Below are positions 11,534 to 35,015 of a stretch of 61,079 bases of DNA, one piece after another (positions within the stretch are counted from its first letter, which is position 1; every line of letters starts with the position of its first letter). The notes below the pieces were generated by a model. The model was not told the DNA's origin, made no database searches, and saw only the letters and a list, made by a program, of their open reading frames with translations. Both the position numbers and the translations under genes were made by a program. The DNA comes from Hormoscilla sp. (GTDB taxonomy: Bacteria; Cyanobacteriota; Cyanobacteriia; Cyanobacteriales; Desertifilaceae): the NCBI GenBank assembly GCA_051439505.1, contig JBFRWI010000180.1, forward strand, positions 1 through 61,079, read 5' to 3'.

Positions 11534-11567
11534 CTAACAACGAAGCGAGAAGCGAGAAGCGAGAGAA

Positions 11568-12825: not shown

Positions 12826-12939
12826 GAAAATCGGTCATCAGCTGGGGCGAGCATTGAGTCACAACCCGATCGAGGCCGAAACCATCGCGCCCCTAGGGGC
12901 CGTCTCAGCTTCTCTGGTTAGAGTTAGGGAAAAACACAG

Positions 12940-14100: not shown

Positions 14101-14201
14101 TTGACCAATTGTTGAATTTCCCTGGTGACTAGGGAACGTGACCAGGGAGACCCTGGTCACGAGGCAAAAATCCCCCTGGTCATGAGGCAACCATCTAATA
14201 T

Positions 14202-14750: not shown

Positions 14751-14908
14751 GATGGTGAGGGAGTTTTCTGCGGAATGCTACGCAAACGGGCTAAAAGGGT
14801 GCATTGAGATGCACGGGCGAAGCATTACGATAGGTAATTTATCAACTTATGTCAGAGATTGTCGCCGTAATGCTTCGCCCCTACAGATATTTTTATCCTA
14901 TCAATATT

Positions 14909-15310: not shown

Positions 15311-15321
15311 GCTATCTCGGC

Positions 15322-15690: not shown

Positions 15691-15946
15691 ATCTAACAGC
15701 CCTCCCACGACGAACACATAGCGATCGCATTTTGCTCTGATTTGAGCTGACTGAGACAATTTCGACAAATATCGTAAAAAAAATATATAATATCAAGGTT
15801 TTATTTAACTTAAGTTAACGTTTTTTTATTTACCAGTCTCATAAGTGCTCGAACCGTTAAAAAAACTTTAATCACCGAGCCAGTCTCAAGGGACTCTGGG
15901 AAACTAGAAAGGCACATTTATAGAAGTCTGTGAGGGTTTGGTCACA

Positions 15947-17116
15947 ATGAAGCTGGCAGCAAGAGTAAGTCAGGTAACGCCTTCCTTAACCATGAGTGTT
16001 ACCGCCAAGGCCCTGGGGATGAAGGCAGAAGGGATTGATGTCTGTAGTTTCAGCGCTGGAGAACCGGATTTTGATACGCCGGCCCATATTAAGGCCGCAG
16101 CTCAGCAAGCACTGGATGACGGTAAAACTAGGTATGGCCCGGCAGCAGGGGAACCCAGGTTACGAGAGGCGATCGCCCGCAAGCTACAACATGATAATCG
16201 GCTAAACATCGACGCGGAAAATGTGATCGTCACTAATGGTGGCAAGCATTCTCTGTACAACCTGATGATGGCCCTGATCGAACCAGGTGATGAGGTGATT
16301 ATCCCCGTTCCCTACTGGGTGAGTTACCCGGAAATGGTGAAATTAGCCGGTGGAACGCCAGTGTTTGTACGGACAACTGCCGCGACTGGATATAAAATTA
16401 CTCCCGCACAGCTGCGTCAGGCGATAACACCGCAAACGAAGCTGTTTGTGCTCAATTCTCCGTCCAATCCTACGGGAATGGTTTATACGCCGGCGGAGAT
16501 CTCCGCCCTGGCAGAAGTGGTGGTGGAGCAGGATATTCTGGTAGTTTCCGACGAGATCTATGAGAAGATTCTCTATGAGGGTGCAGAACACTTGAGTATC
16601 GGTGCGGTTAGCCATGAGGCATTTGTCCGGACGATCGTCAGCAATGGGTTTGCTAAAGCTTACTCGATGACGGGTTGGCGGGTTGGCTATCTGGCGGGTG
16701 CAGTAGAACTGATAAAAGCTTGCAGTAAGATCCAAGGACATAGTACATCAAATGTCTGCACATTCGCGCAGTATGGGGCGATCGCGGCCTTGTCAGAGTC
16801 CCAAGATTGTGTAGAACGAATGCGCCTGGCTTTTTCCCAACGGCGTGAGATAATGCTAGAAAGGATCAACGCTATATCCGGACTTAGCTGTGTTGTGAAA
16901 CCAGAGGGAGCGTTCTACCTGTTTGTAGATATTAGTAAAACAGGTTTGAATTCTCGGGAATTTAGCAATTCGCTGTTAGAATCCCAGCATGTGGCAGTGA
17001 TTCCCGGAATTGCCTTTGGGGCTGACGACCATATCCGCTTGTCCTATGCCACTGACATGAGGACGATCGAAAAAGGGATGGATAGGCTAGAAAAATTCGT
17101 CCGCTCTCTAGTTTAA
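15947..17116 (+). CDS. aspC: Aspartate aminotransferase (class I PLP-dependent)
   Basis: [19 protein letters not shown] and [11 protein letters not shown]. Confidence 0.9.
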
Positions 17117-17222
17117 TATACACCGAAGTCCAGTTGAGATGAATGTAAGAGCCAGTATTGGAGTCAAATCAACCATGACTGAAAGGGGAGCATCTCACTT
17201 TTGCATTTTTGCAACAATATTC

Positions 17223-17263
17223 GCTAATTGCTAATTGCTAATTGCTAATTGCTAATTGCTAAT
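17223..17263. repeat. Heptamer tandem repeat GCTAATT (STRR-type), about 6 copies
   Basis: Direct reading of the sequence. Confidence 0.85.
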
Positions 17264-17723
17264 TTCCTCCTTGTCTCCCTTGTCCCCCTTGTCTTTTGCA
17301 AATATGAGATGCACCCACTGAAAGTCTATTACCCCAAGCATCTGCCTGGGGGTTCCTTCGCAAATGTAATCTTGACGGACTGACATTTTTAGCTCCCCTT
17401 TAAGAAAACTTGACAAATCGACAATACTGTGCTTAGATGGGAAATAGAGCATATAAGCTGTCGCGCATTGAAATTGCTAGGATCCAAATGCTGAAACCCT
17501 TGCCCTAAGAGGGTTTCCCAATTTGGAATTCTGAATGAGAGAATTTTGAATTGCTTACCCACGTGAGTTCGACAGATGTTCAAACCCTTATTTCGCGTCG
17601 GGTCGCGTCGGGTTGAAAATGCCTCAAACCCCCATTATTGCGTTGGAGATCTCCCGAACTCCGAAAGACGAACTCCGAAGGACGAACTCACGTTTACCCC
17701 TACCCCCTTGCAAAAATTAAGCC

Positions 17724-19166
17724 ATGAACCTGAGACAAGTTTTACCTTCGGGATTTGGAATTGTATTTTTGGTAGTGATAATCAATACCATAGTTTCCGA
17801 AGTAACGACAAACACTCTAGAAGATTCTGCCAAATGGATAGCCCACACTCATCAAGTTAAGGTATTTTTGGCAAAGTTAGAAAAAACTTTAGTCGATGCG
17901 GAAACCGGACAAAGAGGTTTTATTTTCTCTGGTGAAGAGGTATTTTTAGAACCCTACGATCGAGCATTATATAGCATAGACGACCAAATAGAAAATCTGG
18001 CAGAAAATATATCCGATAATGCCGTGCAAACAAATAATTTACAAGAGGTTCGAGAATTAGCCAGAAAAAAACTTGAGGAGTTAGAAACGACGATCGTTTA
18101 TAAAAGATCTGGTAGAGAAGCGGAATTAAGAAAGTTAGTATTGTCGGGCCTGGGCCGGGAGATTATGGACGAGATCAGGGTCAAAATTGAGGAAATGGAA
18201 AAAATAGAAGATCGCTTACTCGATGAAAGATACCAAGCAGCAAAAGGAGCTTCTATCTTAGTGAGAATTGTGAATTTTGGCAGTTTAGGGATAATTTTAA
18301 TAGTTTGCGTAATCACTGTATTGATGATTAACAAAATTGCGATCGCACCAATTAACGAAATTGCTAGCACGATCGCCAGTTATACTGCTCAAATTGCTAC
18401 TACTATTCAAGAACAAGAACGGGTGGCTGCCGAACAGGCAAATTCCGTGAGTACCACCACTACAACCATGAATGAATTAAGCGCGTCTTCCCGGCAATGT
18501 TCGGAGCAAGCCCAGTTGACTGTGAAGGCAGCACGAGAGGCCCTTCAGGTAGCAGAAAATGGCGGTGTATATGTGGCGGAAACTTTAGAGGGAATGACGC
18601 AGCTAAAGGAAAAGGTAGGAGAGATAGCTAGTCAAATATTCAAGCTTAACGAACAAAATAATGAAATCGGGACTATTTCTAAAATGGTTAGCGATATGGC
18701 TAACGAAACAAATATGTTAGCCCTTAATGCTGCGGTAGAAGCCGTGCGGGCTGGAGAAAATGGCAAGGGTTTTTCCGTGGTAGCTGGGGAAATTCGGAAA
18801 TTAGCAGAACAAAGCCGGGAATCTGCTAAAAAAATTAACGATTTGGTTATGGAAATTCAAGACTTAATTAATTCAACCAGGTCGGTTACGGATGCAGGAA
18901 CTCAAACTGTAAATTTGGGTATGAAAGTTACGGAAGAAACAACAGGAGCATTCCATGAAATTGCTGATGCTGTCAATAATGTTGTCATAAATAACGAAGC
19001 AATTAATCTTAATACCCAGCAGCAGGCGGCGGCTGTTTTGCAAGTATTAGAAGCGATGAATGCTCTGGAAAATGCTTCTAGAGAAACGGGAGCAGGAATT
19101 AGTCAAACGCGACTGGGTACCGAACATTTAAACCAGGCGGCTTTGGCTCTTAAGGCGATTGTTTAG
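17724..19166 (+). CDS. Methyl-accepting chemotaxis protein with a CHASE3 sensor domain
   Basis: AETGQRGF (CHASE3) and ETNMLALNAAVEAVRAGENGKGFSVVAGEIRKLAEQS (MCP signal). Confidence 0.93.
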   Translation: MNLRQVLPSGFGIVFLVVIINTIVSEVTTNTLEDSAKWIAHTHQVKVFLAKLEKTLVDAETGQRGFIFSGEEVFLEPYDRALYSIDDQIENLAENISDNAVQTNNLQEVRELARKKLEELETTIVYKRSGREAELRKLVLSGLGREIMDEIRVKIEEMEKIEDRLLDERYQAAKGASILVRIVNFGSLGIILIVCVITVLMINKIAIAPINEIASTIASYTAQIATTIQEQERVAAEQANSVSTTTTTMNELSASSRQCSEQAQLTVKAAREALQVAENGGVYVAETLEGMTQLKEKVGEIASQIFKLNEQNNEIGTISKMVSDMANETNMLALNAAVEAVRAGENGKGFSVVAGEIRKLAEQSRESAKKINDLVMEIQDLINSTRSVTDAGTQTVNLGMKVTEETTGAFHEIADAVNNVVINNEAINLNTQQQAAAVLQVLEAMNALENASRETGAGISQTRLGTEHLNQAALALKAIV

Positions 19167-19202
19167 TTACTGGAGATTGTCCTGCAGATGAGGCTAATAT
19201 TG

Positions 19203-21965
19203 TCAGTGATTATGCTTGCCCAACAGTTCTTGAGGCTGTAGAATGGGAATAGCGATGAGAAACTGGGTTCCTTGCCCTGGTACTGACTGACATTTTAAGC
19301 GACCGTGGTGCTTTTTGACGACAATCTGATAGCTAATGGATAACCCCAGACCAGTACCTTTGCCTACAGGTTTTGTGGTGAAAAAGGGGTCAAATAGCTG
19401 AGAACGTACAGACTCGGGAATGCCAGGACCATTATCCCGAATGGCGATCGCCACATGGTTGCCCTTTACCCCCTTTACCACCTGAGTGCGAATCTCAATC
19501 TGAGGATTTTCCCTGGGTGTTTCTGTTTCCCGACCGCTAACAACAGATTCTTCTAAGGCATCGATCGCATTAGCGAGGATATTCATAAACACCTGATTCA
19601 ACTGCCCTGGGTAGCACTGCACCAGAGGCAAGTTGCCATATTCTTTAATTACCTGAATTTCTGCTTGGCTGCCACGCTCTTTGGAGCTAGCTTGGGGACG
19701 CAATCGATGTTGTAAGATTAACAGAGTGCTATCGATGCCTTCGTGAATATCGGCCTGCTTCAATTCTGATTCATCCAGGCGGGAGAAATTGCGTAGAGAT
19801 AGGACAATCTCGCGGATGCGATCGGCTCCCACATGCATAGAATTGAGCATATGGGGTAAGTCTTCTAGGATAAATTCTAGGTCTATGTCCTCTGCCCGGT
19901 CTTGAATTTCAGCTACGGGATGGGGGTAGTGCTCTTGATAAAGATCCAGCAACTCCAGCAGGTCCGTGATATATTCATTGGCATGGTTGATATTGCCGTA
20001 GATAAAGCTGACGGGGTTATTAATTTCATGGGCGACTCCAGCCACCATCTGTCCCAAGCTGGACATTTTTTCACTCTGCACCAACTGCGCTTGAGCCTGT
20101 TTTAGTTCCTGGATGGCAACTGCTCGCTTTTGGGCTTGTTGGCGTGCATGAGCTTCTGCTTGTTGCAAAGCTGCTTCTGCTTGCTTGCTTTCCGTCCGAT
20201 CGCGCATTACCCCCAGGAAATGGGTCAACTGCCCCTGGGCATTCACCAGGGGCACAATATTGATTTCTGACCAAAACTGTGAGCCATCTTTACGATGGTT
20301 GATCACCTCTACGGTAACTGCTTCGCGACTTAAAAGGGCGGCGCGAATTTTGTCTAACTCCGATCGTTGGGTTTTCGGTCCTTGGAAGATGCGGGGAGTC
20401 TGACCGAGGAGTTCGGCGGCAGAGTAACCGGCCATGCGGCTACAAGCCTGGTTCACGTAGACGATCTTAGGGCCCATGGGTGGATCGATCGGATCGGCTT
20501 CGGTAATTAAAATGCCGTCTTGGGCGTTGACAACAGCGGACTCTAGCAAGCGCAGGCGTTCTTCTGCCTGTTGGCGATCGGCTATTTCTTGCTGCAATTG
20601 ACTGTTAAGCTGCAATTGCTCTTGTTTACCTTGTTCTAGTTTACTAAAAGCGGTGAGAATGCTGTCCGCCATTTGATTAAAAGTGACCGCCAGTTCCCCC
20701 ACCTCGTCAGTAGCAAAGACCTGGGCTCGCGCTTCCATGTTACCTGTGGAGAATTCTTTGGTGGTACCCTGTAGCTGCTTGATGGGGCGGGCGATCGCCC
20801 GCCCCAGAACGATCGCCAAGATTACGTCTGTCGTCAATGCCAAGACAGACACGAGTATTTGCAGCAGCAGACTATCCTTTAACATGCTATTCAGTCTCGT
20901 TTCTGGCGTTCCCCGCACCAAAATTGCCACCTGTTCCCCAGCAAAATTGGGCAAGCTTTTCGCCGCCACAGTATAGGTTTGCTTTCCTACAGTTATCCGT
21001 CCTGACACGGGCTTACCCTTTGCCTCCACTGCCGCAGTTAGTAGGGAAGCATCGGGTAAAGGCACATTGATGATATAGTTTTCTTGGTTGGGGTGATAAG
21101 GCTGAGCGATTTCGTGGACTTCTGGATCTTGTACTGCTGTAGCTAATGTAAAAGTGCCCAGAGGTTGGCGCAGATAGACAGCACTATAGCCGCCGCCAAC
21201 AGTTTGTACGGTTTGATTGACAATTAGCGGTTTGCCATTCACGACATCCCCAGATACCAAAGCCCCCAATATCTCTTGGGTTTGGGGGTCGATCACTGGG
21301 GTCACCGTGTAACGAACTAGGGCGTAGTCGGTACTAACCGTTTCTGTTTCTGCGAGCAAAGGCGGAGACTCTTGGAGTAACTCTTGCCAACTAACGACTT
21401 CGCTAGTTTTGATTTGCCGAGGTTGGGCGAGCACTTCACTCACCAAATTGTTAGGATTGAATTTTTCGCCGGAACGATCTGCATTAGCATTGACAATAAT
21501 CCGTAAATCAGCTCCCACTAAGGTAGCATATTCTATCTGCCGGGCTTGAATTTCATTCCTAAGAATGTTTTGCACTTGTTCTCGTAAAGCAACGTCGATG
21601 GTTTCAGCAGCATCATGGGTTTTGGCGGCAGCAATAATGGCAGCATTATCCGATTGTCCCCGGAAGCCAAAGCCCATTTGATTGATTTTGATATTATAGT
21701 GAATTTCCGTAACCGCTAGTTCCGATTTGGCTTGATTGCGCAGCTGAGTGCGTCCCCCCGAGACAATCAAAAAGGCCCCTACCCCCACCAGTCCTACGAT
21801 GGAGATGACCTCGGAAGTGAATAAGCCCACCAGCTGCTTGCGCCGAATGGGAAAGTCATAAAACCATTGTAGAAAACTTCCGTTCCCAGGAGTTTGATGT
21901 TCGGTTTTGTAGGGGCCTTTGTGCGACTGATCCTGTTTTATTGTCGGTTGCCGGACTGGTTTCAT
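19203..21965 (-). CDS. Membrane sensor histidine kinase (Cache-like, HAMP, PAS/PAC, HisKA, HATPase)
   Basis: DEVGELAVTFNQM, IVYVN..GQTPRIFQGP, AGVAHEINNP, DNGPG and GTGLGLS. Confidence 0.92.
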   Translation of the reverse strand: MKPVRQPTIKQDQSHKGPYKTEHQTPGNGSFLQWFYDFPIRRKQLVGLFTSEVISIVGLVGVGAFLIVSGGRTQLRNQAKSELAVTEIHYNIKINQMGFGFRGQSDNAAIIAAAKTHDAAETIDVALREQVQNILRNEIQARQIEYATLVGADLRIIVNANADRSGEKFNPNNLVSEVLAQPRQIKTSEVVSWQELLQESPPLLAETETVSTDYALVRYTVTPVIDPQTQEILGALVSGDVVNGKPLIVNQTVQTVGGGYSAVYLRQPLGTFTLATAVQDPEVHEIAQPYHPNQENYIINVPLPDASLLTAAVEAKGKPVSGRITVGKQTYTVAAKSLPNFAGEQVAILVRGTPETRLNSMLKDSLLLQILVSVLALTTDVILAIVLGRAIARPIKQLQGTTKEFSTGNMEARAQVFATDEVGELAVTFNQMADSILTAFSKLEQGKQEQLQLNSQLQQEIADRQQAEERLRLLESAVVNAQDGILITEADPIDPPMGPKIVYVNQACSRMAGYSAAELLGQTPRIFQGPKTQRSELDKIRAALLSREAVTVEVINHRKDGSQFWSEINIVPLVNAQGQLTHFLGVMRDRTESKQAEAALQQAEAHARQQAQKRAVAIQELKQAQAQLVQSEKMSSLGQMVAGVAHEINNPVSFIYGNINHANEYITDLLELLDLYQEHYPHPVAEIQDRAEDIDLEFILEDLPHMLNSMHVGADRIREIVLSLRNFSRLDESELKQADIHEGIDSTLLILQHRLRPQASSKERGSQAEIQVIKEYGNLPLVQCYPGQLNQVFMNILANAIDALEESVVSGRETETPRENPQIEIRTQVVKGVKGNHVAIAIRDNGPGIPESVRSQLFDPFFTTKPVGKGTGLGLSISYQIVVKKHHGRLKCQSVPGQGTQFLIAIPILQPQELLGKHNH

Positions 21966-22135
21966 CTTAAAATTTGCTTAAGTCACGTAATTTCATCTAA
22001 CCAGTATGCTACCACTCCAGGCGATCTTTGAGTCTTGAGTGCGATCGCCTTCTTTCCTGCTGTTAATGCCCCGTGAGTTCCATAAATAGGTCGCCCAGGG
22101 CATCTCCCTCAAAGTAGAGTTAGTAAAATAATTTT

Positions 22136-22318
22136 GGCGTTGCACATTTTTCGGATGATGACAGCCAATTGTTAAAAATTGCTAATTGAAAAGAGTCAAT
22201 TTATCTATTTATGACCAAAAATGACTATCGCGATTAACCATTGACAATAGCGCTCCTGCGTCGCGCACTTCGTATAAGCAAGCCCGCAACCCTTATCATC
22301 CCGTCGTTGTGCAACGCC
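22136..22318. mobile_element. MITE with TIR GGCGTTGCACA and an 8-bp TSD
   Basis: ATAATTTT is duplicated at 22128-22135 and 22319-22326. Confidence 0.8.
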
Positions 22319-22463
22319 ATAATTTTCTTATAGTTTTGTATATTTTTTTGAAGTTGCAATAATATCAAGTAAAATTGCAGAAATTGCAGGGGCTACTGGT
22401 AGGGTGGGCATCGCCCACCATCCGGCTTTGTTACAGGGCATAACCCCAGTATGTAGCAGGGAT

Positions 22464-22766
22464 TTAGAATTTGTAGAGGATGTCAAAGCCCTGCAAACCT
22501 TGAGGTTGTTCTTTGTTAACGGCGACATCCGTGACTGCCGCATCAAGGGGCCCCTGGTAACACCAGCGAATCATGGCTTCAACGGCAGACTGAGATCCTT
22601 CAAAGACAGCTTCGACTCGGCGATCGGGCAAATTACGTACCCAACCGGCAATACCCAAATGTTTGGCCTGGGAACGAGTGGAGAAGCGATAGCCGACGCC
22701 CTGGACTCGGCCCGAAATGAAGACATGGGCGCGAATTTCTGGTTTTGGTTGTGATGGTTTTTCCAT
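22464..22766 (-). CDS. acyP: Acylphosphatase
   Basis: ISGRVQGVGYR and GWVRNLPD.RVEA. Confidence 0.93.
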   Translation of the reverse strand: MEKPSQPKPEIRAHVFISGRVQGVGYRFSTRSQAKHLGIAGWVRNLPDRRVEAVFEGSQSAVEAMIRWCYQGPLDAAVTDVAVNKEQPQGLQGFDILYKF

Positions 22767-22801
22767 AAACTTATCAAAAGTATGCTCAATTAATCATAAT
22801 C

Positions 22802-23323
22802 ATGATCTTAGTTCATCGCCTCACGGCTGCATACTCGACTATTCCTAATGCCGAAGCTTGGGTCTGGGCGGCATTGCTGGTATGCATATTTACCATAATT
22901 TCTCTGCCCGTGGGATTCAAGTTTGATTTCCTGCAACTAAAAGTAGAGACAGCATGGCAAACCGTTGTCAGTGTCATGGCCATGACACTGCTAATCCCTG
23001 GGATATTTGAGGAGACAGTGTTTCGGGTTTTACCCCTGCCTCACCCAGCAGAAAATCCTTCGGTCCAAGTCCAGTTGCTGTGGGGGTTGGGCAGTTTAGC
23101 AATTTTCATTATCTCTCATCCGCTGAATGGTTTGACCTTCTATCCTGCTAGACTGAAGACATTTACCAATCCAGTTTTTCTGTCTTTAGCAGGAATTCTA
23201 GGTCTTATTTGCACGATCGCCTATTGGCAGAGTGGTTCAATTTGGACGCCCATAGCTATTCACTGGTTAATTGTAGTAATTTGGTTGCTAGGGCTAGGTG
23301 GATATGAAAAACTCTCTCAGTAG
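22802..23323 (+). CDS. CPBP (CAAX/Abi) family intramembrane glutamic protease
   Basis: EETVFR, FIISH and IAIHW motifs. Hydrophobic. Confidence 0.85.
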   Translation: MILVHRLTAAYSTIPNAEAWVWAALLVCIFTIISLPVGFKFDFLQLKVETAWQTVVSVMAMTLLIPGIFEETVFRVLPLPHPAENPSVQVQLLWGLGSLAIFIISHPLNGLTFYPARLKTFTNPVFLSLAGILGLICTIAYWQSGSIWTPIAIHWLIVVIWLLGLGGYEKLSQ

Positions 23324-23512
23324 GGTGGGCATTGCCCACCTGTAAAAATTGGTGGGCGGTGCTTTCGTAATTCAGCGATCGATATCTATCTTACTTCGCT
23401 GTTATCCCGCCGGGGGTTCAAACCCCCGGCTAATAGCTAAAGTCGGTTGAAACCGACTAATAAATAATTTTCAAATTAATTGTAGCATTGTTTTTACAAA
23501 ATGGTATAATCT

Positions 23513-23563
23513 AGCCCGCGCAGGCGGGCTTTGTTTGTGTAGCCGGACCCTTTAGGGTTCGGG
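23513..23563. repeat. REP-like element AGCCCGCGCAGGCGGGCT...CCGGACCCTTTAGGGTTCGG
   Basis: Inverted copies near 39762-39811, 44310-44359 and 47481-47530. Confidence 0.75.
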
Positions 23564-23585
23564 CGACGCAAATATGCAGTGTACC

Positions 23586-24395
23586 CTACTTTTTCCAGAT
23601 TTGAGGTTGACGGAAAGCATGGATATCTTTGATTACCTGTACCCAGCTATTGGCCAGAGATGCTAAGATGCGATCGCCATTTTCCCCAGAAGCAGTTGTA
23701 GGATCTCCCAGGACTCCACTTGTCGTTAAATCTCGCGTCGCCCAAGCGAAAGGCAGCTTTCCCTCCATACTCAGCATACTGTCTGTAGGTAACTCTTGAG
23801 GATATTCAGCTACTGCCGCCTCCATGTTCACCTGTTCTGGTAGCAGAGAAAGGAGTAAGCTAGTTTCGGCATCTCCAGCATGGATCCCCAATTCAAATTC
23901 CTTTGCTGTCAATAATTCCTCAGTAATATTAGGAACGCGCCAGGTAAACAGGGGGAACACCATAAAATCATCATATTTGACGTGTAAATCTCGCGCTGCT
24001 ATTTCCAATACCTGGGGTTGTCCTCCGTGGGAGTTAATCAACACAAACTTGCGAAAACCGGCCCGGTAAATACTTTCGGCTACTTCGGTAATAACTGCCA
24101 ACAGGGTTGGGGCCGTCAGAGTAATTGTACCCGGGAAATGTAAGTGTTCGTTAGATTTGCCATAATAAAGGGTAGGCAAGGCATAAGCGGGAATGCTGGG
24201 GTCTAGTTGAGCCAATGCCTTTCCCAAAACTCCGACGCTAATGGCAGCATCTACTATGAGTGGCAAATGGGGGCCATGTTGCTCAATTGCCCCGATCGGT
24301 TGGATGATCGGCACATTTTCCTTATCTGGAATTGCCTGGATCTCTGTCCAGCTGAGGTAGGTAAAAAAACGTTCTGGGGGGATGAAGCTGTGCAT
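23586..24395 (-). CDS. Creatininase family protein
   Basis: GAIEQHGPHLPL..D, NSHGG, HAGDAETS and SGVLGDPT. Confidence 0.9.
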   Translation of the reverse strand: MHSFIPPERFFTYLSWTEIQAIPDKENVPIIQPIGAIEQHGPHLPLIVDAAISVGVLGKALAQLDPSIPAYALPTLYYGKSNEHLHFPGTITLTAPTLLAVITEVAESIYRAGFRKFVLINSHGGQPQVLEIAARDLHVKYDDFMVFPLFTWRVPNITEELLTAKEFELGIHAGDAETSLLLSLLPEQVNMEAAVAEYPQELPTDSMLSMEGKLPFAWATRDLTTSGVLGDPTTASGENGDRILASLANSWVQVIKDIHAFRQPQIWKK

Positions 24396-24407
24396 TATTG
24401 TTGATTG

Positions 24408-24858
24408 CTAATTGTTAATTGCGTTCCGGGGCACCCAAGTATAATACTGCTCAATGAGCCCGATCGTCAATTCTTGCTTCTGTTGGACTGCGATCGCCCC
24501 TTGGTGGACCTGGGCGATCGCCCCTGCTATGGAAAATCCCAATCCAAATCCTCCTTGATTTTTAGAACGGGTTTTATTCACGCGATAGAAGCGATCGAAA
24601 ATCTGCGATTTTTCCTCTGGGGAAATCCCCAGGCCATTATCTTCGACGTGAATGAGAGCATAATGTGCATCTCTTTCTAATCTTAACATGACAACTCCTC
24701 CTGGTGATGTATATTGAATCCCATTGATAACTAAGTTATCTTGCTTGAGTTGCTGTTGGGAGTTAAGGCTTAATTGCCAATCCAGGAGGCAACTGGCAGT
24801 TAAATCTCGCGTAGCCCAAGGGAAAGGCAGCTTCCACTCCATGCTCCTCAGCATGCTA
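24408..24858 (-). pseudogene. Chimeric relic: a creatininase fragment joined to the HATPase_c fragment of a sensor kinase
   Basis: SMEWKLPFPWATRDLT copies the neighbouring gene. NLVINGIQYT..DNGLGI..FDRFYR..GFGLGFSIA has no HisKA domain or evident start. Confidence 0.7.
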
Positions 24859-25018
24859 TATTTCCTACGTACACCCAAAAAAGTCCGGGGAGTATTGTGG
24901 TAAGCTACCAACTTAAGCCGGGATAGCCCATAAGGCAAGGCTTCTAGCCCACAGGGACGCGCGATCGCTCCCTTGGGCCTCTTGGGCCTCTTTGTCCCCC
25001 TTGACGTTGGTACTCTTG

Positions 25019-25027
25019 TGGTATAAT
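25019..25027 (+). promoter_or_regulatory. Extended -10 promoter (TGGTATAAT) for the EF-hand gene
   Basis: TGnTATAAT lies 30 nt before ATG 25058. TTGACG is at 25001-25006 (15-nt spacing). A GAGG RBS precedes the start. Confidence 0.5.
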
Positions 25028-25057
25028 TACCAAAAGTTGATTGAGGAATTAGTAGAA

Positions 25058-25633
25058 ATGTCTCCAGAAGAATTTTTGTCATCTAATGTTTGGGTTGCCA
25101 AGATGAAGACCTACTTCCAGGTCATGGACACTAACCAAAATGGTTTTTTGTCCCTCTCTGAATACGAGGAGATTGCGGAGCGGATGATCCAAAATCAAAA
25201 AGATCGGTCGAAAGACGAAGAAATTCGTGGGGTGTTTCGCTCCCTGTTTAACAACTTTGTCGCCGGAGGGAAGCAGGTCGATGCTGACACCCAGATTGGT
25301 TACGAAGAGTTCCTCGCCAATGCCGCGAAGGCGGTCTCGTCGATGCAATCGTCACGGGAAGCGGGTAAGCGAAAGAACGAAGTTTTCTTTGATTTCGTCG
25401 ATACAGATGGCTCTGGAGAGATATCCCGTGAAGAATACCGAAAGTATCTGGCAATATACTCCGGGGGAGAGGACCCCGATCGTGCCGATCGGGCTTTCGA
25501 CAGCATCGACGTTGATGGCAATGGTTCTATCACCCGCGCCGAGTTTGTTGAAGGTCATATGCACTACTGGTTTGAACATACTAGCGACCCAAGCTGCTCG
25601 CCGCTTCCCTATGGGCCGTTGGTAGATTCATAA
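25058..25633 (+). CDS. EF-hand Ca2+-binding protein of the sarcoplasmic-calcium-binding/coelenterazine-binding/photoprotein structural family
   Basis: 191 aa. EF loops DTNQNGFLSLSE, DTDGSGEISREE and DVDGNGSITRAE, with EF2 degenerate. WVAKMKTYF start and YGPLVD end. Confidence 0.85.
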   Translation: MSPEEFLSSNVWVAKMKTYFQVMDTNQNGFLSLSEYEEIAERMIQNQKDRSKDEEIRGVFRSLFNNFVAGGKQVDADTQIGYEEFLANAAKAVSSMQSSREAGKRKNEVFFDFVDTDGSGEISREEYRKYLAIYSGGEDPDRADRAFDSIDVDGNGSITRAEFVEGHMHYWFEHTSDPSCSPLPYGPLVDS

Positions 25634-25733
25634 TATTAACCTGAGTTTGGGATAAGTCGGAATCAGCTGCGCAGCATACTAAAAAACTGGTAATTTCCCG
25701 AAAATACCGTCCTCTAGGCGGTTGACGCGACGC

Positions 25734-25756
25734 AAAAAAGCCACTAGCTGCGTGGC
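25734..25756 (-). terminator. Rho-independent terminator downstream of the omega-like RNA
   Basis: Minus strand GCCAC-gcagcta-GTGGC-TTTTTT. Confidence 0.6.
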
Positions 25757-25982
25757 CAGTGACTATTTTGCTGCCTTTCGGCTCTCCCTGAAAAGGGGTA
25801 AAGTTTGCCTCGGTCAAGTTAAAGGGGCTTTTTACATCTGACTCACGCGGTCCTACTAAATCCATTCGTTCCGTTCCTTAAAGCCAGACGACAGCAGCTT
25901 AAGGCTGGCGCTCACCCGTAGGTGTCATGACCCCCCTAACGTAGGTCTGATCCTGGACCTGCATCAAGCATCTTCCCGAGGG
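25757..25982 (-). ncRNA. Orphan HEARO/omega-RNA-like structured RNA (IscB/IsrB-type guide scaffold) without a nuclease ORF
   Basis: Minus strand order: CAGACCTACGTT, GTCATGACACCTACGGGTG..GCCAGCC..CTGTCG, TTAAG, AAAAAGCCCC, TAACTTGACCGAGGCAAACTTTACCCC..GGGAG. GTTAGGGGGG pairs with CCCCTTTAAC. Confidence 0.8.
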
Positions 25983-25987
25983 AGATA

Positions 25988-25996
25988 ATTTTAACA
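25988..25996 (-). promoter_or_regulatory. Extended -10 (TGTTAAAAT) upstream of the omega-like RNA
   Basis: TGnTAAAAT on the minus strand, about 28 nt before the scaffold hairpin. Confidence 0.45.
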
Positions 25997-26382
25997 TTGG
26001 TCAGAAATTACCGGATTTTATGCAAGAGTAGATTCCGACTTTAGCTATGAGCCTGTGCCGCCACCGGCGGAGGATCGGGAAAAATACAAGATCTAAGTTG
26101 TATTATACCCAATTTTTCCCAAGCTTTCCCAAGATTCCCCAACTTGTCCTAACTTTTTATCTGGTCATTAACGGGAGAAGTCCAAATAAAAATATGACTT
26201 TTAGGGGATTCAAAGGAAAAGCGCATTGCTCTAATATATCTGGAGTTACGCAGAAGTCTTAAAGATATGGTGGGCGGTGCCCGCCAGATGCTACACCGGT
26301 ACGAGATAATGGTCCAAATGGCTTAAGTCCTGTGGATAGGGGCAAGTTGACTGTCAAGGATGAGCAGTAAGGAGTATAATAA

Positions 26383-27489
26383 ATGTTGTTAAAAAGTATC
26401 CCTCAAAATGTTATCCCTCAAAATGGACTTAAATGTTTATTGGGGTGTGTACGTGTAGGTGATGGAAGTGTGGCTTTCTGGCATGAAAAAAAATTACGCG
26501 ATCTGGGAATAGAGACTCTAGGGATTATCGATCCCGATCCTGTTAAACAAAAAAAGGCAGCAAAGAGAGGAATAAAGGTATTTTCATCTTTGGTACAAGC
26601 AGCAGAAAATCGTCCAATTTTCTGGGATATTTGTTGTCCTACTAAATATCACGTTGAAGTCATCAGGGATATTATAGAAATTGATAACCAGGCTAACATT
26701 ATAGTAGAAAAACCGGTCTGCTCCTACGGTGAAATAGAAAAATTGTCTGAATTGCTGAAGGGATTTAAGGGAAAGCTAGTTGTTAACGAAAACTACATAT
26801 CATCATTAGTAACACAGAAGATCAAAGAACTGATTATCGATATGGAACTTACCCCCCATAGAGTTGTATCAGAAATGACAAAAAAACGAATTAATGACTT
26901 TATTAATGGTCGTTTTTTGGATAATGAGTTTTATGCGTTTGGTTATGAAGGTTCCCATATAGTTACCAATGTCCTGGCTCTAGGAAAAAAATATATTCCC
27001 CGGGAAATAGGAAATATTTTTTATGAAGACCTATATATTGATATTAATGGCAAAAAGCTGCATCTGCCCAAGCAGGCAATGGTAGAAAAGCACTATCGAG
27101 CAGTGAATGGTGCAGAAGTTGTGTTATATACTTCTATGGAGGGAAAGATAAAATACTTTTATCCAGGGTACTCTCTGCACCACCTCTACCAAGCTCCTGA
27201 AGATCCACATACCCGCTATCGTGTATTAGCTGTAGAAGATCATAACACTGGTATAACTGTAGCTGGATTTTATGAACCTATTATTGGTCAAAACAGAGGT
27301 GAAGGACGTGTTGTAGTCTGCAAGGATGGCATTGTGCAAAAAATCATCCCCCACATAGTTGATGATACAATGGGCAGAACTCTGAAAAATGCCATAGAAT
27401 ATTTCCAGGGAAAAAGAGAAAATCCCTGTCCTGCGAGGGTAGCTATTGGCATAGTAGAGTTCATGAATTTATGGTATAGTGAAAAATGA
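26383..27489 (+). CDS. Gfo/Idh/MocA-like oxidoreductase
   Basis: DICCPTKYH...NIIVEKP...VNENY. AT-rich, with an AAGGAG RBS. Confidence 0.7.
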   Translation: MLLKSIPQNVIPQNGLKCLLGCVRVGDGSVAFWHEKKLRDLGIETLGIIDPDPVKQKKAAKRGIKVFSSLVQAAENRPIFWDICCPTKYHVEVIRDIIEIDNQANIIVEKPVCSYGEIEKLSELLKGFKGKLVVNENYISSLVTQKIKELIIDMELTPHRVVSEMTKKRINDFINGRFLDNEFYAFGYEGSHIVTNVLALGKKYIPREIGNIFYEDLYIDINGKKLHLPKQAMVEKHYRAVNGAEVVLYTSMEGKIKYFYPGYSLHHLYQAPEDPHTRYRVLAVEDHNTGITVAGFYEPIIGQNRGEGRVVVCKDGIVQKIIPHIVDDTMGRTLKNAIEYFQGKRENPCPARVAIGIVEFMNLWYSEK

Positions 27490-27522
27490 ACATCAACACC
27501 GAAAACGGAGGTTGTCAATTAA

Positions 27523-27852
27523 ATGATCCTTTCTAGCGATAGCATCCCCCAGGAAAGAGGACACTGCGGCACTATTAGAAAACTGGTATCCCAAGGACCG
27601 GCCAGACTCGTACATCTTTTTGTGGAGAATGCAGAAAAGCATTATCACAAAAAGACGACAGAGTATTATTACGTACTTAATGGAACCGGACAGGTGTCTC
27701 TCGACGACAATATACAGCCGATTAAAAAAGGTGACGTCATTAAAATAGAACCGGGAGTTAAGCACCAGGCGATCGAGGGTGAAGAACCCTTGGAAATTCT
27801 CGTAATTGAAGTGCCTCCTGCCATAGGTGACTCTTATATAGTAAACGAATAG
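27523..27852 (+). CDS. Cupin domain protein
   Basis: HYHKKTTEYYYVLNGTG and GDVIKIEPGVKH. Confidence 0.88.
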   Translation: MILSSDSIPQERGHCGTIRKLVSQGPARLVHLFVENAEKHYHKKTTEYYYVLNGTGQVSLDDNIQPIKKGDVIKIEPGVKHQAIEGEEPLEILVIEVPPAIGDSYIVNE

Positions 27853-27979
27853 TCCCTACCAACGGGATCATATTCACATCAAATGCCCAGAAACCAGGTT
27901 TTTACGTTAATCTGAACTCTCTAGGCGCGAAAGCGCCTGGAAAGCACTAAAGTGCTTACTACGAACGAATTAGCAATTT

Positions 27980-30478
27980 CTACCCGATCGCACCTTGGGA
28001 AGTAGCAGATGGCAGGTCGAATTGCTCTAAGAATTCGATGACTGCCTCGGGAGTTATCCGGATGGCATCTGGGGCTAAAGCACCGCTAATCATCGACTCG
28101 CCTCTAATATCAAACATATAGCGTATCATCAGAATGCCGTCAGTGATCGCATCGGCGTTGCCATTACCATCCACATCCAGCATGATATCACGGGCTTCGT
28201 CCAGGTAGTTGGCGATCGCATCTGGACTGTTCCGGTTCGCCCCTGATGCGATCGCGCCTTCCGTGAGAGCATCATCTCTAATGTCGAATAGATAACGTAA
28301 AGCCAGAACACCGTCAGTGAGAGCATCTACTTCTCCATTATCGTCTATATCTAGAGTAAAGCCAGATGGTTCGGTATTTCCAGAAAATTCAAAAGCCCCA
28401 ATATCGGCGATCGCCGTCCCATCATCATCTCCATCTAGGGGACGAGAAATACCCCGTTGATCGGTAGCGGGTGCGCCAGCATTCACCCCGCCATCAATAG
28501 CAGGACTTTCTGGTAGCAGGGGATGTACGAGGACGCCATTAATCTCTTGCAGGTCTCCTAAGAGGGGGTCTGCCTGGGTAACCCCCGGCACCACCAGAGT
28601 ATCATTGGGATTGAGTTCGTTAGATTGGATGTTTCCCCCGCCATCGCTGAATTGAGAACCCGTGTGATGGTTAAGGTTAAACCCCTCGATGCCTTGATTA
28701 TAGGCGAGAATGGTATTTGTCAGGGTTGTCGAGAAGTTACCACCCCAAAATCCTCCCCCCTGAAACCCGGCTGTATTGTTGGCAATGGTCGTGTTAATAA
28801 TGTTGTTGACACCATTGCCCAGGGCGATCGCCCCTCCCAAACCGCCCACATTACCAATTGACTCTGCCGTGTTGCCCGAGAAAGTGCTGTTAGTAATCTC
28901 GGTTGGGGAATTTTCTCCTATCCACAAGCCACCTCCTTGACCCTGGGCCGTATTATTGGCAAAGGTACTGTTGTCAATCTTAAAATCTGCACCACCGCCG
29001 TGCCGCAGTCCCCCACCTAATCCGAATCCTTGGGTATCTGGTTGTATCTGATTATTGATAATGGTGCTATTGGCGATCGTCACTTCGTCTCCAGGGTAAG
29101 CGAACAGAAACATTCCTCCCCCTTGTCCTGCCCCTTGATTGCCCTCAAATCGACTATTGCTAATATCAATGCGCCCAGTTGTGCTAGCATTGGTTGTTGC
29201 GGAAGCCCCATCCGTGTAAATGGCACCGCCGTAACCAAATGTATTAGGAGAGAACGCACCACCTGCTGTTGAGTCGTTATCGATGAAAGTCGAGTTTTCG
29301 ACAGTCAGTCCCCCCAACAGGGTGTTAATTGCCCCGCCATTAATCCCCCTGTTATCGATAAATATGCTGTCTGTGACTGTGGTAGTGCTTTCGCTTTTGA
29401 CTGCGATCGCCCCTCCGCCCCTTCCGCTTTTTCCAAACTCCCCGTTCCCAGATGAACTATTCCCCTCAAATAAGGAATCGATCGCGGTATTATTACTGCG
29501 AAAACCGGCAAATATTGCCCCGCCGCCCACCCCGTCTGCCACGTTATTGAGAAACTTGCTATTGACTACAGTTAAAGTCGTACCGCTTGCGGTTTTAATG
29601 CCTCCCCCTGCGCCCGCTTCTCCCGTGCCATTGCTTTTCCCATTGGCAACGATCGTATTCTCTATCGTCACAGTTACGGGATTAAAATTGGCATCGTTGG
29701 TAATCTCAAATACCCGATGGGCGTTATTGCCACTGATGGTGACATTGGGGTTATTATCACCATCAACCAGACCGACAATAGTCAGGTCTTTATCGATTAC
29801 CAGTTGACTGTTCAGGGTAATGGTTCCCCCCGCCAGACTGGGGTCCAATATTATGCTGTCTCCCGGGTTTGCAAGGGCGATCGCCTCCCTCAAACTTCCG
29901 GCACCAGAGTCATTAATATTGGTAACGTTAATGGTTGCTAACACTCCCCGGTAAGCTGCCATTACCTCTGGACCTAAAGCTATCGGCGTTGTTACTTCAC
30001 CTGCGGTAAACTCTAAGTTCCAGTTACTTACCGTAGCAGCATTTCCTACCAAGTTAGCCGATGCCGCGATCGCCTTACCAGTCAAGTTTCTCAGTTCCTT
30101 GACAAATTCCGCTCCTCGTGCGTAGGCTAGTTGGCAGCCGTAAAGCAGGATAGCAGCTTTCTGGGACAATGCCTGCTGCCACACTTGCCAATGTTCGAGG
30201 TATTTTCCCAGACTGTCCGTGCTGAGGACGACACCGGGCAAGTATAGGCGATCGGGACTACCATGGGCAAAGATATGAACAGCATCAATTTCCCCAAATG
30301 CCGCCGCCTGCTGAATAGATGTAGTAATTTGGTCGAGCCCATTCCTGGCGCGGTCTAATACGTCAACCTTTACCCCTTCACGAACACCTGCGACTAGGGA
30401 TTGGTAGTCCTCTATACTGGGGTCAATAAAGACCAGGGTTTGAGAACGTGAATTCAGTGAAGTCTGGAACTCGATCAT
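27980..30478 (-). CDS. DUF4347 plus beta-helix (GGAI repeats, choice-of-anchor Q-like) secreted protein with a C-terminal dockerin-like duplicated motif
   Basis: LVFID..HIFAHGSP..ILLYGC, DSGAGSLREAI, F..N...GGGAI repeats, SPAIDGG..TDQRG..DIGAFE, and LD.D.NG..DA.TDG....RY.F twice. Confidence 0.85.
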   Translation of the reverse strand: MIEFQTSLNSRSQTLVFIDPSIEDYQSLVAGVREGVKVDVLDRARNGLDQITTSIQQAAAFGEIDAVHIFAHGSPDRLYLPGVVLSTDSLGKYLEHWQVWQQALSQKAAILLYGCQLAYARGAEFVKELRNLTGKAIAASANLVGNAATVSNWNLEFTAGEVTTPIALGPEVMAAYRGVLATINVTNINDSGAGSLREAIALANPGDSIILDPSLAGGTITLNSQLVIDKDLTIVGLVDGDNNPNVTISGNNAHRVFEITNDANFNPVTVTIENTIVANGKSNGTGEAGAGGGIKTASGTTLTVVNSKFLNNVADGVGGGAIFAGFRSNNTAIDSLFEGNSSSGNGEFGKSGRGGGAIAVKSESTTTVTDSIFIDNRGINGGAINTLLGGLTVENSTFIDNDSTAGGAFSPNTFGYGGAIYTDGASATTNASTTGRIDISNSRFEGNQGAGQGGGMFLFAYPGDEVTIANSTIINNQIQPDTQGFGLGGGLRHGGGADFKIDNSTFANNTAQGQGGGLWIGENSPTEITNSTFSGNTAESIGNVGGLGGAIALGNGVNNIINTTIANNTAGFQGGGFWGGNFSTTLTNTILAYNQGIEGFNLNHHTGSQFSDGGGNIQSNELNPNDTLVVPGVTQADPLLGDLQEINGVLVHPLLPESPAIDGGVNAGAPATDQRGISRPLDGDDDGTAIADIGAFEFSGNTEPSGFTLDIDDNGEVDALTDGVLALRYLFDIRDDALTEGAIASGANRNSPDAIANYLDEARDIMLDVDGNGNADAITDGILMIRYMFDIRGESMISGALAPDAIRITPEAVIEFLEQFDLPSATSQGAIG

Positions 30479-33713: not shown

Positions 33714-33870
33714 CGGTGCTGGTAGATACCACCGTTACATAAGACTTACCCAAAGTTACCCATCGCTTGACATCTTTGGAACTCACTTCCTGCTTCACTC
33801 TGGTAGTGCTGGCACTGACCAGTCCACAGGCTAACACCACCTAACTGGCGGCTTTTTCTAAATTAATCGA
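33714..33870 (-). ncRNA. Predicted TnpB reRNA/omega-RNA (right-end scaffold plus flanking guide)
   Basis: Structured sequence (GCCTG...CTGGT..ACCAG..GAAGCAGG) runs from the tnpB 3' end to the element end. Boundaries are approximate. Confidence 0.55.
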
Positions 33871-35015
33871 GGCATTCAGATCTCGATCTATCTCTAAACC
33901 ACAATTGTCACACTGGAAGACTCTTTCCGATAACGGCATGGAGTCCTTTTTTGTCCCGCACTGAGAACATGTCTTAGTTGAGGGATACCATTGATCAACT
34001 ACAACTAAGATCGTTCCATACAACTCGCACTTATACTCCAACTGTCGTCTGAATTCATAGAATCCCATGTCACCGATAGCTTTAGCCAGTTTGTGATTAG
34101 CCATCATTCCCGACACATTCAAATCTTCTATTCCTATCCGACTGTGGTTTTTGGCCAAATAGGTTGTGATCTTGTGTAATGTATCTTTACGAATGTTAGC
34201 TATTTTCCGATGTAGGCGAGCTATTTTAACTTGCGCTTTTTTCCAATTGGCTGAACCGATTTTTTTATGACGATTCTGCCATTGCAACCGTGAGAGTTGT
34301 TTCTCGTATTTACGATAGCTTTTAGCACCCTCAAAGACTTCACCGGTTGATAGAACTGCCAGGGCCTTTACACCTAAATCTACCCCAACTACAGGATGGG
34401 CCTTTTGCTGAGTAACTGGCTCAACTTCCATCTTAAAACTGACGAACCATCTATCAGCCGTCCTGGATATAGTCACGGACTTGGGGACTCGACAGACTGG
34501 CAGCCGCTCATATGTTCTTAGCCAACCAATTACTGGAACTCTAATTCCGAAATGGTCAAGTTCGATCTTTCCATCTAGAGTGAAGCTATCAGCACGACCT
34601 TTTTTCTTAAACCTGGGCGGTTTACTGACCTTTTTGAATGCCCGCCTCCAAGCTTCAGCTAGCTGTCTCAAAGCATATTGTGGAGCACATTTGCTTACTT
34701 CGTAGTACCAAGGATACTCAGGTTTGACCAGGGCTACCAGCCATTTATGCAAATCTATCGCTGTCGGAACTTTTATTTTCTCCTCTGGATTGTCCCGATT
34801 GTGGTCAAGTATCTGTTTTGTTAAACCCAATCCCCAATTCCAAGCATGACGAGCTACTCCGCAATGTTTAGCCAATGCCGTTCGCTGTTGGTTGTTCAGT
34901 TTTAATTCTGTTTTAAAGCCTAAGAGCATACATCCTCCACAGCTTTTGCCACACGCTTCGCTATAAATTGTGCTGGTGTACTGATATAAACTACACCACA
35001 ATCCTTACCCATTCC
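33732..35015 (-). mobile_element. Non-autonomous IS607-family element (tnpA deleted, tnpB intact)
   Basis: The right end reads ...TGAAGCAGGAA...TGGGTAACTTTGGGTAAGTCTTATGTAACGG. The left end has a similar TGGGTAAG motif after a GG. A short VAKAVEDVCS* relic overlaps the tnpB start. Confidence 0.72.
33841..34929 (-). CDS. tnpB: RNA-guided endonuclease TnpB
   Basis: N-terminal HTH (ARHAWNWGL), RuvC VGVDLG / IGIEDL / DRDLNA, and zinc finger CSQC...CDNC. Confidence 0.95.
   Translation of the reverse strand: MLLGFKTELKLNNQQRTALAKHCGVARHAWNWGLGLTKQILDHNRDNPEEKIKVPTAIDLHKWLVALVKPEYPWYYEVSKCAPQYALRQLAEAWRRAFKKVSKPPRFKKKGRADSFTLDGKIELDHFGIRVPVIGWLRTYERLPVCRVPKSVTISRTADRWFVSFKMEVEPVTQQKAHPVVGVDLGVKALAVLSTGEVFEGAKSYRKYEKQLSRLQWQNRHKKIGSANWKKAQVKIARLHRKIANIRKDTLHKITTYLAKNHSRIGIEDLNVSGMMANHKLAKAIGDMGFYEFRRQLEYKCELYGTILVVVDQWYPSTKTCSQCGTKKDSMPLSERVFQCDNCGLEIDRDLNASINLEKAAS

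What the first reader, a model, noticed from the sequence alone, without database searches (positions are those of the whole stretch)
25650..26045. Stand-alone HEARO/omega-type guide-RNA gene with its own promoter and terminator but no IscB
Seen: the minus strand carries, in order, the landmarks of IscB/IsrB omega RNAs (CAGACCTACGTT, GTCATGACACC..CCAGCC..CTGTC, AAAAAGC, AACTTGACCGAGGCAAACTTTACC, 3' hairpin with GGAG). The long-range pair GTTAGGGGGG/CCCCTTTAAC is intact. Where iscB would normally start there is a GCC-GAAA-GGC hairpin and a U-tailed terminator. An extended -10 (TGTTAAAAT) sits about 28 nt upstream, leaving a ~20-nt leader (CCTCGGGAAGATGCTTGATGC) in the guide position. The usual GTCAAC...GTTGAC transposon-end stem is replaced by a short AGGTC/GACCT hairpin. 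Known: omega RNAs guide IscB/IsrB, and trans-acting orphans have been reported. Inference: this is an autonomously expressed guide RNA, possibly domesticated, that programs an IscB-like protein encoded elsewhere or acts as an sRNA.
Basis: partly seen in the sequence, partly recalled or inferred. Interest (0 to 1): 0.8.

Follow-up and report, generated by a model that had tools for sequence, protein, structure and literature searches.

The report
Guide-RNA mini-transposon with IS607-type ends
This is one of about twenty copies of a tiny gene-less jumping element that carries the guide RNA of IscB (the ancestor of Cas9), and its two ends look like those moved by a serine recombinase (IS607 type), a partner not reported for IscB in the papers searched.

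Summary
The omega/HEARO RNA is real (RF02033, 65.9 bits, E 7e-13) but is not a stand-alone domesticated gene. It is one copy of a 357-bp mobile element (26028-25672, minus). The genome holds 23 RNA-side and 18 far ends; of 20 visible 3' junctions, 18 carry a terminator filler and 2 an intact iscB. The orthologous site in a relative is empty. Protein-free omega-RNA minis are known. New: the ends are IS607-type, not IS200/IS605-type. Both junctions share CT; the target is CTG (18 of 18); 10-bp-phased CCGG/CCAG repeats end 14 nt from the terminus, as in a co-resident IS607. A matrix trained on other genomes' IS607 ends scores 18 of 23 and 18 of 18 family ends, but 0 of 25 canonical IscB elements. 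Most likely the element is moved by an IS607 serine recombinase and guarded by IscB, both in trans (inferred; no assay; both matching tnpA copies here are broken). The scan noted IscB with IS607-type ends once before on other DNA (e1-7751181), and IscB-less minis many times.

The parts
25672..26028 (-). Whole mini-element from the CT at the RNA-side junction to the CTG at the far junction (357 bp; one CT and the final G belong to the target site)
   Evidence: Boundaries from 23 and 18 aligned ends and from the empty site in G001
26029..26048 (-). Predicted guide: host flank just outside the boundary (left arm of a host palindrome); length assumed about 20 nt
   Evidence: Variable flank next to an invariant end; position by analogy to IscB elements (Meers 2023); inferred
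25784..26028 (-). omega-RNA scaffold, 245 nt, shared with the iscB-carrying copies
   Evidence: RF02033 hit; sister copy C166 matches the whole model from the element's fifth base at 84.9 bits, over the cut-off; alignment
25984..26028 (-). RNA-side end: CT core, 12-nt spacer, 10-bp-phased CCGG-type repeats; read on the plus strand it resembles an IS607 right end.
   Evidence: 19 of 31 identical in register to the IS607 right end on C1 (21 of 31 for copy C166); matrix score 15.0, last repeat 14 nt from the terminus
25965..25971 (-).
25734..25783 (-). Filler that replaces iscB: small hairpin plus intrinsic-terminator-like stem with U tail
   Evidence: same junction in 18 of 20 pieces; not found in 13 family genomes nor in metagenome contigs
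25675..25704 (-). Far end: two phased repeats and a 12-nt spacer, shared with the iscB copies
   Evidence: matrix score 15.2
25672..25674 (-). Target motif CTG (CT core plus G); predicted TAM of the cognate IscB
   Evidence: 18 of 18 far ends; retained in the empty site; the TAM role is inferred
25654..25664 (-). Right arm of the host palindrome (left arm 26041-26031) into whose loop the element inserted
26102..26107 (-). Host TATAAT hexamer 73 nt upstream of the boundary, also present at the empty site; candidate promoter for read-in transcription
   Evidence: seen in the sequence; not listed by the scan; untested

Best explanation
A recently amplified, protein-free derivative of an IscB insertion sequence whose ends are of the IS607 (serine recombinase) type. 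Shown: one founder replaced iscB by a terminator filler, kept both ends and the omega-RNA scaffold, and spread to about 20 CTG sites. Inferred: an IS607 TnpA supplied in trans binds the 10-bp-phased CCGG/CCAG repeats, excises the element scarlessly at the CT core (AG on the strand that matches IS607 orientation) as a double-stranded circle, and inserts it at new CTG sites. Also inferred: transcription entering from the host flank makes an RNA with a flank-derived guide, the scaffold and a terminator. IscB from the two full copies loads it and cuts the emptied site (guide + CTG) but not the filled site (guide + CTC or CTT), so repair from the sister chromosome restores the element.
For: Mobility and boundaries; empty site in G001 and a second empty-site contig in run X5. 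Parent element with intact IscB. IS607-type ends: (1) the best non-family match to the far-end 24-mer on both strands of the whole genome is the IS607 right end on C213 (20 of 24); C1's is one of two at 19; 8 of 8 shuffled queries had none at 20. (2) A matrix trained only on 6 distinct IS607 right ends of other genomes ranks the genome's own IS607 right ends in rows 1-4 and RNA-side ends of this family in rows 5-13. It scores 14 or more for 18 of 23 RNA-side and 18 of 18 far ends, against 0 of 25 and 0 of 25 ends of canonical GTCA-type IscB elements and 1 of 1500 random windows. (3) The last repeat ends 14 nt from the terminus in 23 of 23 RNA-side ends and in both IS607 right ends, and 14 nt from the CT in 18 of 18 far ends (15 to the G). 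(4) A dinucleotide shared by both junctions and phased repeats are the IS607 hallmarks (PMC6188088; bioRxiv 2023.11.20.567912). Related cyanobacterial IS607s use TG or AG cores rather than GG. (5) The one-base self/non-self contrast (CTC or CTT against CTG) parallels CGG against GGG in ISXfa1 (bioRxiv 2023.08.09.552727). Scaffold kept: 96.1% of cells paired over 54 pairs. Trans function of stand-alone omega RNAs is published (PMC10691335; PMC9581776).
Against: No biochemical test. Both matching IS607 tnpA genes in this assembly are broken (assembly 93% complete, 232 contigs); intact ones were seen only in G002 and G255, while G004's is frameshifted. No element with serine tnpA plus iscB was found: 0 of 114 IscB loci within about 1.5 kb. 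The core differs from that of the co-resident IS607 (AG against TG in IS607 orientation). 3 of 8 genomes with this IscB family have no close TnpA with this query (G003, G234, G268). The junction sequence alone fits a Y1 insertion at N|CTG equally well. RNAalifold did not predict the first stem as drawn, nor did single-sequence folding of this copy; this copy breaks 3 of 54 pairs. Only 3 pairs change on both sides, among related sequences. Upstream ORFs show no orientation bias: 10 same, 10 opposite, 1 tie among the 21 of 23 ends with an ORF. Transcription is not shown.
Confidence: 0.6

Rival explanations
1. IS607-type mini-element in which the RNA is a passenger: the scaffold survives because it contains the transposon end and the burst is recent; few or no copies give IscB a working guide.
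For: Mini copies are 88-96% identical, so little time for decay. Several carry lesions or insertions in the scaffold (C39 deletion, C1 and C203 insertions, broken first stem here). No orientation bias.
Against: The whole 245-nt scaffold, far more than the 45-nt end, is kept in 7 of the 8 complete minis (C39 lacks about 13 nt). The founder gained a terminator whose stem is kept in 15 of 16 copies printed. 18 of 18 sites carry the G beyond the CT core, as selection by a TAM would give.
Confidence: 0.2
2. Ordinary PATE-like derivative of an IS200/IS605-family IscB element moved by a Y1 TnpA that recognises subterminal hairpins, with target N|CTG; the IS607 likeness is a relic or convergence.
For: All described ISC elements are assigned to Y1 (PMC4810608; Meers 2023). 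The genome has 3 Y1 hits over the cut-off, one an intact IS200-type gene. The RNA-side end of copy C43 folds as DNA with z -2.46. Scarless insertion fits both enzymes.
Against: No GTCA-type terminus; CTG is not among the targets in Table 1 of PMC4810608. The far ends do not fold better than shuffles (z -0.19 and 0.20), nor does this copy's RNA-side end (z 0.15). No end like this element's was seen at the 4 Y1 loci, only scattered one-mismatch 9-mers. The in-register match to IS607 ends is far beyond controls.
Confidence: 0.13
3. One reading: a domesticated, self-promoted guide or sRNA gene with a fixed 20-nt guide.
For: Terminator present; a TGn-TAAAAT hexamer exists in this copy and 6 others.
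Against: Multicopy and absent from the orthologous site. The 'guide' is constant also in iscB-linked copies and pairs with the element's first bases. The hexamer is missing in 16 of 23 ends. No true guide has a 12- or 16-nt match next to CTG elsewhere in the genome (0 of 22).
Confidence: 0.03

Closest known systems
Stand-alone omega RNAs of OMEGA-IscB systems (Altae-Tran et al. 2021, seen only as cited in PMC10691335 and PMC9581776)
   Same: Mobilised omega RNA without effector or transposase, in a genome that also holds effector-carrying copies; guide outside the end.
   Different: Here iscB is replaced by a dedicated terminator filler, minis outnumber full copies 18 to 2, and the ends are IS607-like.
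HEARO RNA, Rfam RF02033
   Same: Model match E 7e-13; same core helices; upstream of iscB in sister elements.
   Different: This copy is below the gathering score; the 5' region starts CTC and is built from phased repeats, not the usual GTCA-type start.
ISC elements and PATEs of the IS200/IS605 superfamily (PMC4810608; Meers et al. 2023, bioRxiv 2023.03.14.532601)
   Same: iscB-only and protein-free non-autonomous forms, scarless insertion, motif at the far end differing slightly from the RNA-side motif.
   Different: 3-nt target CTG with CT at both junctions; no GTCA terminus; ends match a serine-recombinase element. Meers et al. state that tnpB but not iscB was found with the IS607 serine resolvase.
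IS607 family (IS1535, PMC6188088; CboIStron, bioRxiv 2023.11.20.567912; ISXfa1, bioRxiv 2023.08.09.552727), and the cyanobacterial CCGG-repeat IS607 on contigs C1 and C213
   Same: Helically phased end repeats, shared core dinucleotide, three-base target, one-base self/non-self contrast; 21 of 31 bases identical in register at the right end.
   Different: Cargo is iscB or its RNA alone, on the opposite strand, instead of tnpA-tnpB; core AG (CT) rather than GG or the co-resident TG; no transposase gene.

Membership tests
HEARO / IscB omega RNA (RF02033) | Covariance-model match at the curated cut-off | tested here: inconclusive
   65.9 bits against 83, E 7e-13; 1 of 14 genome matches is over the cut-off (C166, 84.9)
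HEARO / IscB omega RNA (RF02033) | Lies directly upstream of iscB in intact elements | tested here: met
   Same scaffold precedes a 421-aa IscB on C2 and C41 (NF040563 478.5 bits)
HEARO / IscB omega RNA (RF02033) | Variable 5' guide outside an invariant boundary | tested here: met
   22 different flanks before an invariant end
Stand-alone trans-acting omega RNA | Mobilised without effector, compatible effector in the same genome | tested here: met
Stand-alone trans-acting omega RNA | Transcribed and directs IscB cleavage in trans | not testable with these tools
   Only contigs of one RNA library were available; no assay
IS200/IS605 (ISC, PATE; Y1) | Subterminal hairpins at both ends | tested here: inconclusive
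   z -2.46 for one RNA-side end, but 0.15, -0.19 and 0.20 for the other three ends folded
IS200/IS605 (ISC, PATE; Y1) | 4-5 nt target motif; GTCA-type 5' terminus of ISC elements | tested here: not met
   Only CTG is conserved; no flanking position beyond it is; terminus CTC
IS200/IS605 (ISC, PATE; Y1) | Ends shared with a Y1 tnpA or IS605 tnpB element | tested here: not met
   No shared end at 4 Y1 loci; no exact end motif near 9 tnpB loci, where the only look-alikes were IS607 ends
IS607 (serine recombinase) | Same dinucleotide at both junctions, no duplication beyond it | tested here: met
   CT at 23 of 23 and 18 of 18 ends; one CT in the empty site
IS607 (serine recombinase) | Short, helically phased repeats near both ends, matching a TnpA-encoding element | tested here: met
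IS607 (serine recombinase) | GG core | tested here: not met
   Core is CT/AG; related cyanobacterial IS607s end in TG or AG, so GG is not universal
IS607 (serine recombinase) | Encodes TnpA (serine) and TnpB | tested here: not met
   No gene in the mini; iscB alone in the parent; 0 of 114 IscB loci with a serine tnpA nearby. It can only be a non-autonomous user of IS607 TnpA
IS607 (serine recombinase) | TnpA-dependent excision through a double-stranded circle | not testable with these tools
   needs an excision assay

The most novel reading that the evidence does not exclude
An IscB-omega RNA module has left the Y1/IS200-IS605 world and been rebuilt between IS607 ends in cyanobacteria, with the right-end repeats folded into the RNA's first stem and the TAM reset to the recombinase target CTG. 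A second IscB clade with different phased repeats suggests this happened more than once. The protein-free minis would then be double parasites: serine recombinase for movement and IscB for homing, both in trans.
Probability: 0.6. Interest if true: 0.7.

Novelty: new variant of a known kind. Interest (0 to 1): 0.55.

Why it matters
The papers read place IscB, the Cas9 ancestor, only in Y1-type IS200/IS605 elements, while TnpB is shared with IS607. If this family is moved by a serine recombinase, the guide-RNA homing module is portable between unrelated transposition chemistries for IscB too. It also gives a direct test of how TAM and insertion target co-evolve. It predicts a 421-aa IscB with a short CTG TAM and a 357-bp natural substrate for an IS607 TnpA with a non-GG core. 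The protein-free guide-RNA element by itself is ordinary.

Tried and rejected
Rfam at gathering level: no HEARO hit. Fixed-guide or regulatory target: 0 of 22 guides match elsewhere at 12 or 16 nt plus CTG; 4 of 22 have one 10-nt match, about 4 expected. Origin of the filler: only in this family; metagenome pattern scan 0. Viral contigs: 0. Autonomous serine tnpA + iscB element: none; the pattern search over 401 genomes matched only G000, G003, G004 and G255. Matching IS607 ends for other phased-end IscB lineages in their own genomes (G019, G044, G073, G607, G268): no clear match by eye, and the matrix did not score the TAGCCAG group (0 of 4). RNA evidence not counted: contigs of one RNA library (X9) cover the element up to 26029, with summed depth of about 10,000-30,000 over the scaffold, about 100 past the terminator and 7.6 on the neighbouring gene, while DNA run X1 shows no such drop. 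These are contig depths summed over copies from one study, DNA may be present, and the contig entering the filler has only 25 letters on that side, so this shows presence only. DDE-type MITE with 2-bp duplication was considered: the ends are imperfect inverted repeats, but they match IS607 ends and the extra G is fixed; no DDE search was run. Altae-Tran 2021 (Science) is not held; it and its supplements, and the extended data of the bioRxiv papers, were not seen and may list this clade or a CTG TAM. The tree's end labels were regular expressions written after viewing the sequences; the matrix test is the fairer control.

Full report
Observation. The minus strand at 25.7-26.0 kb holds the landmarks listed. 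Rfam gives no hit at gathering level but HEARO RF02033 at 65.9 bits, E 7.2e-13, over 25798-25968. The terminator-like stem at 25764-25739 is found by the scan. The locus lies between an EF-hand gene (24992-25633, plus) and a Gfo/Idh/MocA oxidoreductase (26383-27489, plus).

It is a multicopy element. The own genome holds 23 RNA-side ends, all starting CTC (24 pattern hits, one chance hit on C132 dropped; 23), and 18 far ends, all ending CTG with those three letters left free in the pattern. No flanking position beyond these is conserved. Of 20 pieces that show what follows the RNA, 18 continue into the same filler and 2 into iscB; 8 minis are complete on one contig, 357-449 bp. The two iscB genes (C2, C41) are 421 aa, 91% identical and without stops. 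C2's passes NCBIfam NF040563 and has RRXRR and HNH domains. The motifs KLDPG, MELVRFD, EHI and HWLD are present in both (their catalytic roles are recalled). Relative G001 has the orthologous site empty, with one CTG at the junction. A contig of DNA run X5 joins across the element too (25674 to 26037, 8 other letters between; likeness threshold 85). Among 30 relatives only G001-G004 had long matches to the RNA or ends; the G001 and G004 copies examined carry iscB. The filler was found in 0 of 13 family genomes. So one founder lost iscB, gained a terminator and spread in this lineage.

The scaffold begins at the boundary, 26028: sister copy C166 matches the whole HEARO model from the element's fifth base at 84.9 bits. 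The 'leader' is nearly constant in 16 aligned sequences including 7 iscB-linked ones. Its 3' part pairs with the element's first bases: 92.9% of cells in that helix, 96.1% over 54 pairs, 3 pairs with changes on both sides against 0.6 in shuffles (structure drawn by me from these sequences and the Rfam alignment, sequences related). Against this, RNAalifold proposed another pairing for the 5' end, this copy alone does not fold the stem, and it breaks 3 pairs. The same TT variant occurs in 3 of 23 ends and in an iscB-linked copy in G234. The '-10' occurs in 7 of 23 ends. The real guide is the host flank, as described for IscB elements (Meers et al. 2023, section 5 read). No guide has a 12- or 16-nt match plus CTG elsewhere in the genome (0 of 22), so the only predicted target is the copy's own emptied site.

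The ends are IS607-type. Four tests followed. First, the far-end 24-mer of the IscB element has its best non-family match in 12.9 million positions at the C213 IS607 right end (20 of 24); C1's is one of two at 19; 8 shuffled queries gave none at 20 and 0-2 at 19. Second, a matrix built only from 6 distinct IS607 right ends of other genomes ranks own IS607 right ends in rows 1-4 and RNA-side ends of this family in rows 5-13; 10 unrelated rows come before the first far end at row 25. Third, that matrix reaches 14 in 18 of 23 RNA-side and 18 of 18 far ends (this copy 15.0 and 15.2). Across IscB elements it reaches 14 in 6 of 9 and 5 of 10 ends of the TGCAG-labelled group, 0 of 25 and 0 of 25 of the GTCA-type group, and 1 of 1500 random windows. 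Fourth, the geometry agrees: the last repeat ends 14 nt from the terminus in 23 of 23 RNA-side ends and both IS607 right ends, and 14 nt from the CT in the 18 far ends. The RNA-side end read on the other strand is 21 of 31 identical (C166) or 19 of 31 (this copy) to the IS607 right end, in register to the last base. Multi-copy IS607s in relatives show TG (G002, 5 copies) or AG (G137, 4 copies examined) at both junctions, so a CT/AG core is within range. In a FastTree tree of 48 IscB proteins (from 49 of the 114 loci held; midpoint root), all 10 TGCAG-labelled sequences fall in one clade of 13 (support 0.992) and 4 others with different phased repeats form a second clade (0.999), both among GTCA-type relatives. 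A close TnpA (E at most 1e-59) occurs in 9 of 301 genomes and this IscB family in 8, both in 5, of which 4 are one genus (one search scored only 2 candidates a genome).

How it most likely works. Shown: mobility, boundaries, target CTG, parent with intact iscB, end similarity. Inferred from IS607 biochemistry (PMC6188088, passages; bioRxiv 2023.11.20.567912, passages): TnpA dimers bind the phased repeats, excise a double-stranded circle at the core, and insert at a matching core. Inferred from IscB biology (Meers 2023, passages and section 5): read-in transcription, possibly from the host TATAAT at 26107-26102, gives guide plus scaffold, ended by the filler's terminator. IscB in trans cuts guide+CTG, which exists only after excision; filled sites read CTC, or CTT in two G001 copies. 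This mirrors CGG against GGG in ISXfa1 (bioRxiv 2023.08.09.552727, passages).

What weighs against it. Both matching tnpA genes in this assembly are broken; intact frames were seen in G002 and G255, not G004. No serine tnpA lies near any of 114 IscB loci, and one weak Y1 hit does. The core differs from the co-resident IS607. G003, G234 and G268 have the IscB family without a close TnpA by this query. The junction alone also fits Y1 at N|CTG; Y1 genes exist, though none shares the ends. There is no orientation bias of upstream ORFs, and transcription is not shown.

Comparison with what is known. Stand-alone, mobilised omega RNAs that work in trans are published (PMC10691335, passages; PMC9581776, passages; the primary paper was not held), and protein-free PATE-like forms are in Meers 2023. 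ISC elements are assigned to Y1, and CTG is not among the listed targets (PMC4810608, passages and section 7). Meers 2023 states that iscB was not found with the IS607 resolvase, and a 2026 review lists IscB only under IS605 (PMC13565253, passages and section 12). PMC9956272 and PMC9755519 (passages) added nothing contrary. Seven searches (listings and abstract starts) showed no paper on IscB elements with IS607-type ends; subscription journals and supplements are largely outside this library. Verdict: the finding as written is a known kind misread, but the family is a new variant through its ends. Interest 0.55.

Noticed in passing
L162, L170, L173, L182 (G607, G044, G536, G073): A second IscB clade with different 10-bp-phased end repeats, separate in the tree; not scored by the CCGG matrix.
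   Followed up: partly
L279 (G255:C40:30288-30652): Independent 365-bp iscB-deletion mini of the same family, without the terminator filler, also CT...CTG; this genome has an intact matching IS607 tnpA.
   Followed up: partly
L031 (G003:C12): The opposite deletion: both ends kept, RNA core and 5' third of iscB lost.
   Followed up: no
alignment A1, own-genome rows: Copies are mosaic: 142 of 276 pairs of informative sites show all four combinations; gene conversion among copies or chimeric assembly.
   Followed up: partly
G000 C1, C203, C5, C232, C39: Secondary insertions or a deletion inside the scaffold of several copies.
   Followed up: no
L034 (G004:C29): An RNA-side end of this family directly abuts the remains of an IS607 right end.
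   Followed up: no
L015 (G000:C60): The one intact IS200-type Y1 gene is followed by a palindrome resembling the host palindrome into which this element inserted; possibly a REP-associated pair.
   Followed up: no
window 26140-26102 (minus): 10-bp-phased TTGGG repeats followed by TATAAT, shared with C100:33255 upstream of a 248-aa gene.
   Followed up: partly
window 33859-34062 (minus): tnpB zinc-ribbon hit in a 387-aa open frame, one of several similar tnpB-only elements in the genome.
   Followed up: no
window 23512-23535 and 39789-39812: Single Rfam CRISPR-DR28 matches of 24 nt, not arrays; probably dispersed hairpin repeats.
   Followed up: no
window 24408-25082 (minus): Chimeric-looking ORF with a piece like the neighbouring gene at 23586-24395 and a histidine-kinase-like tail (by eye).
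   Followed up: no
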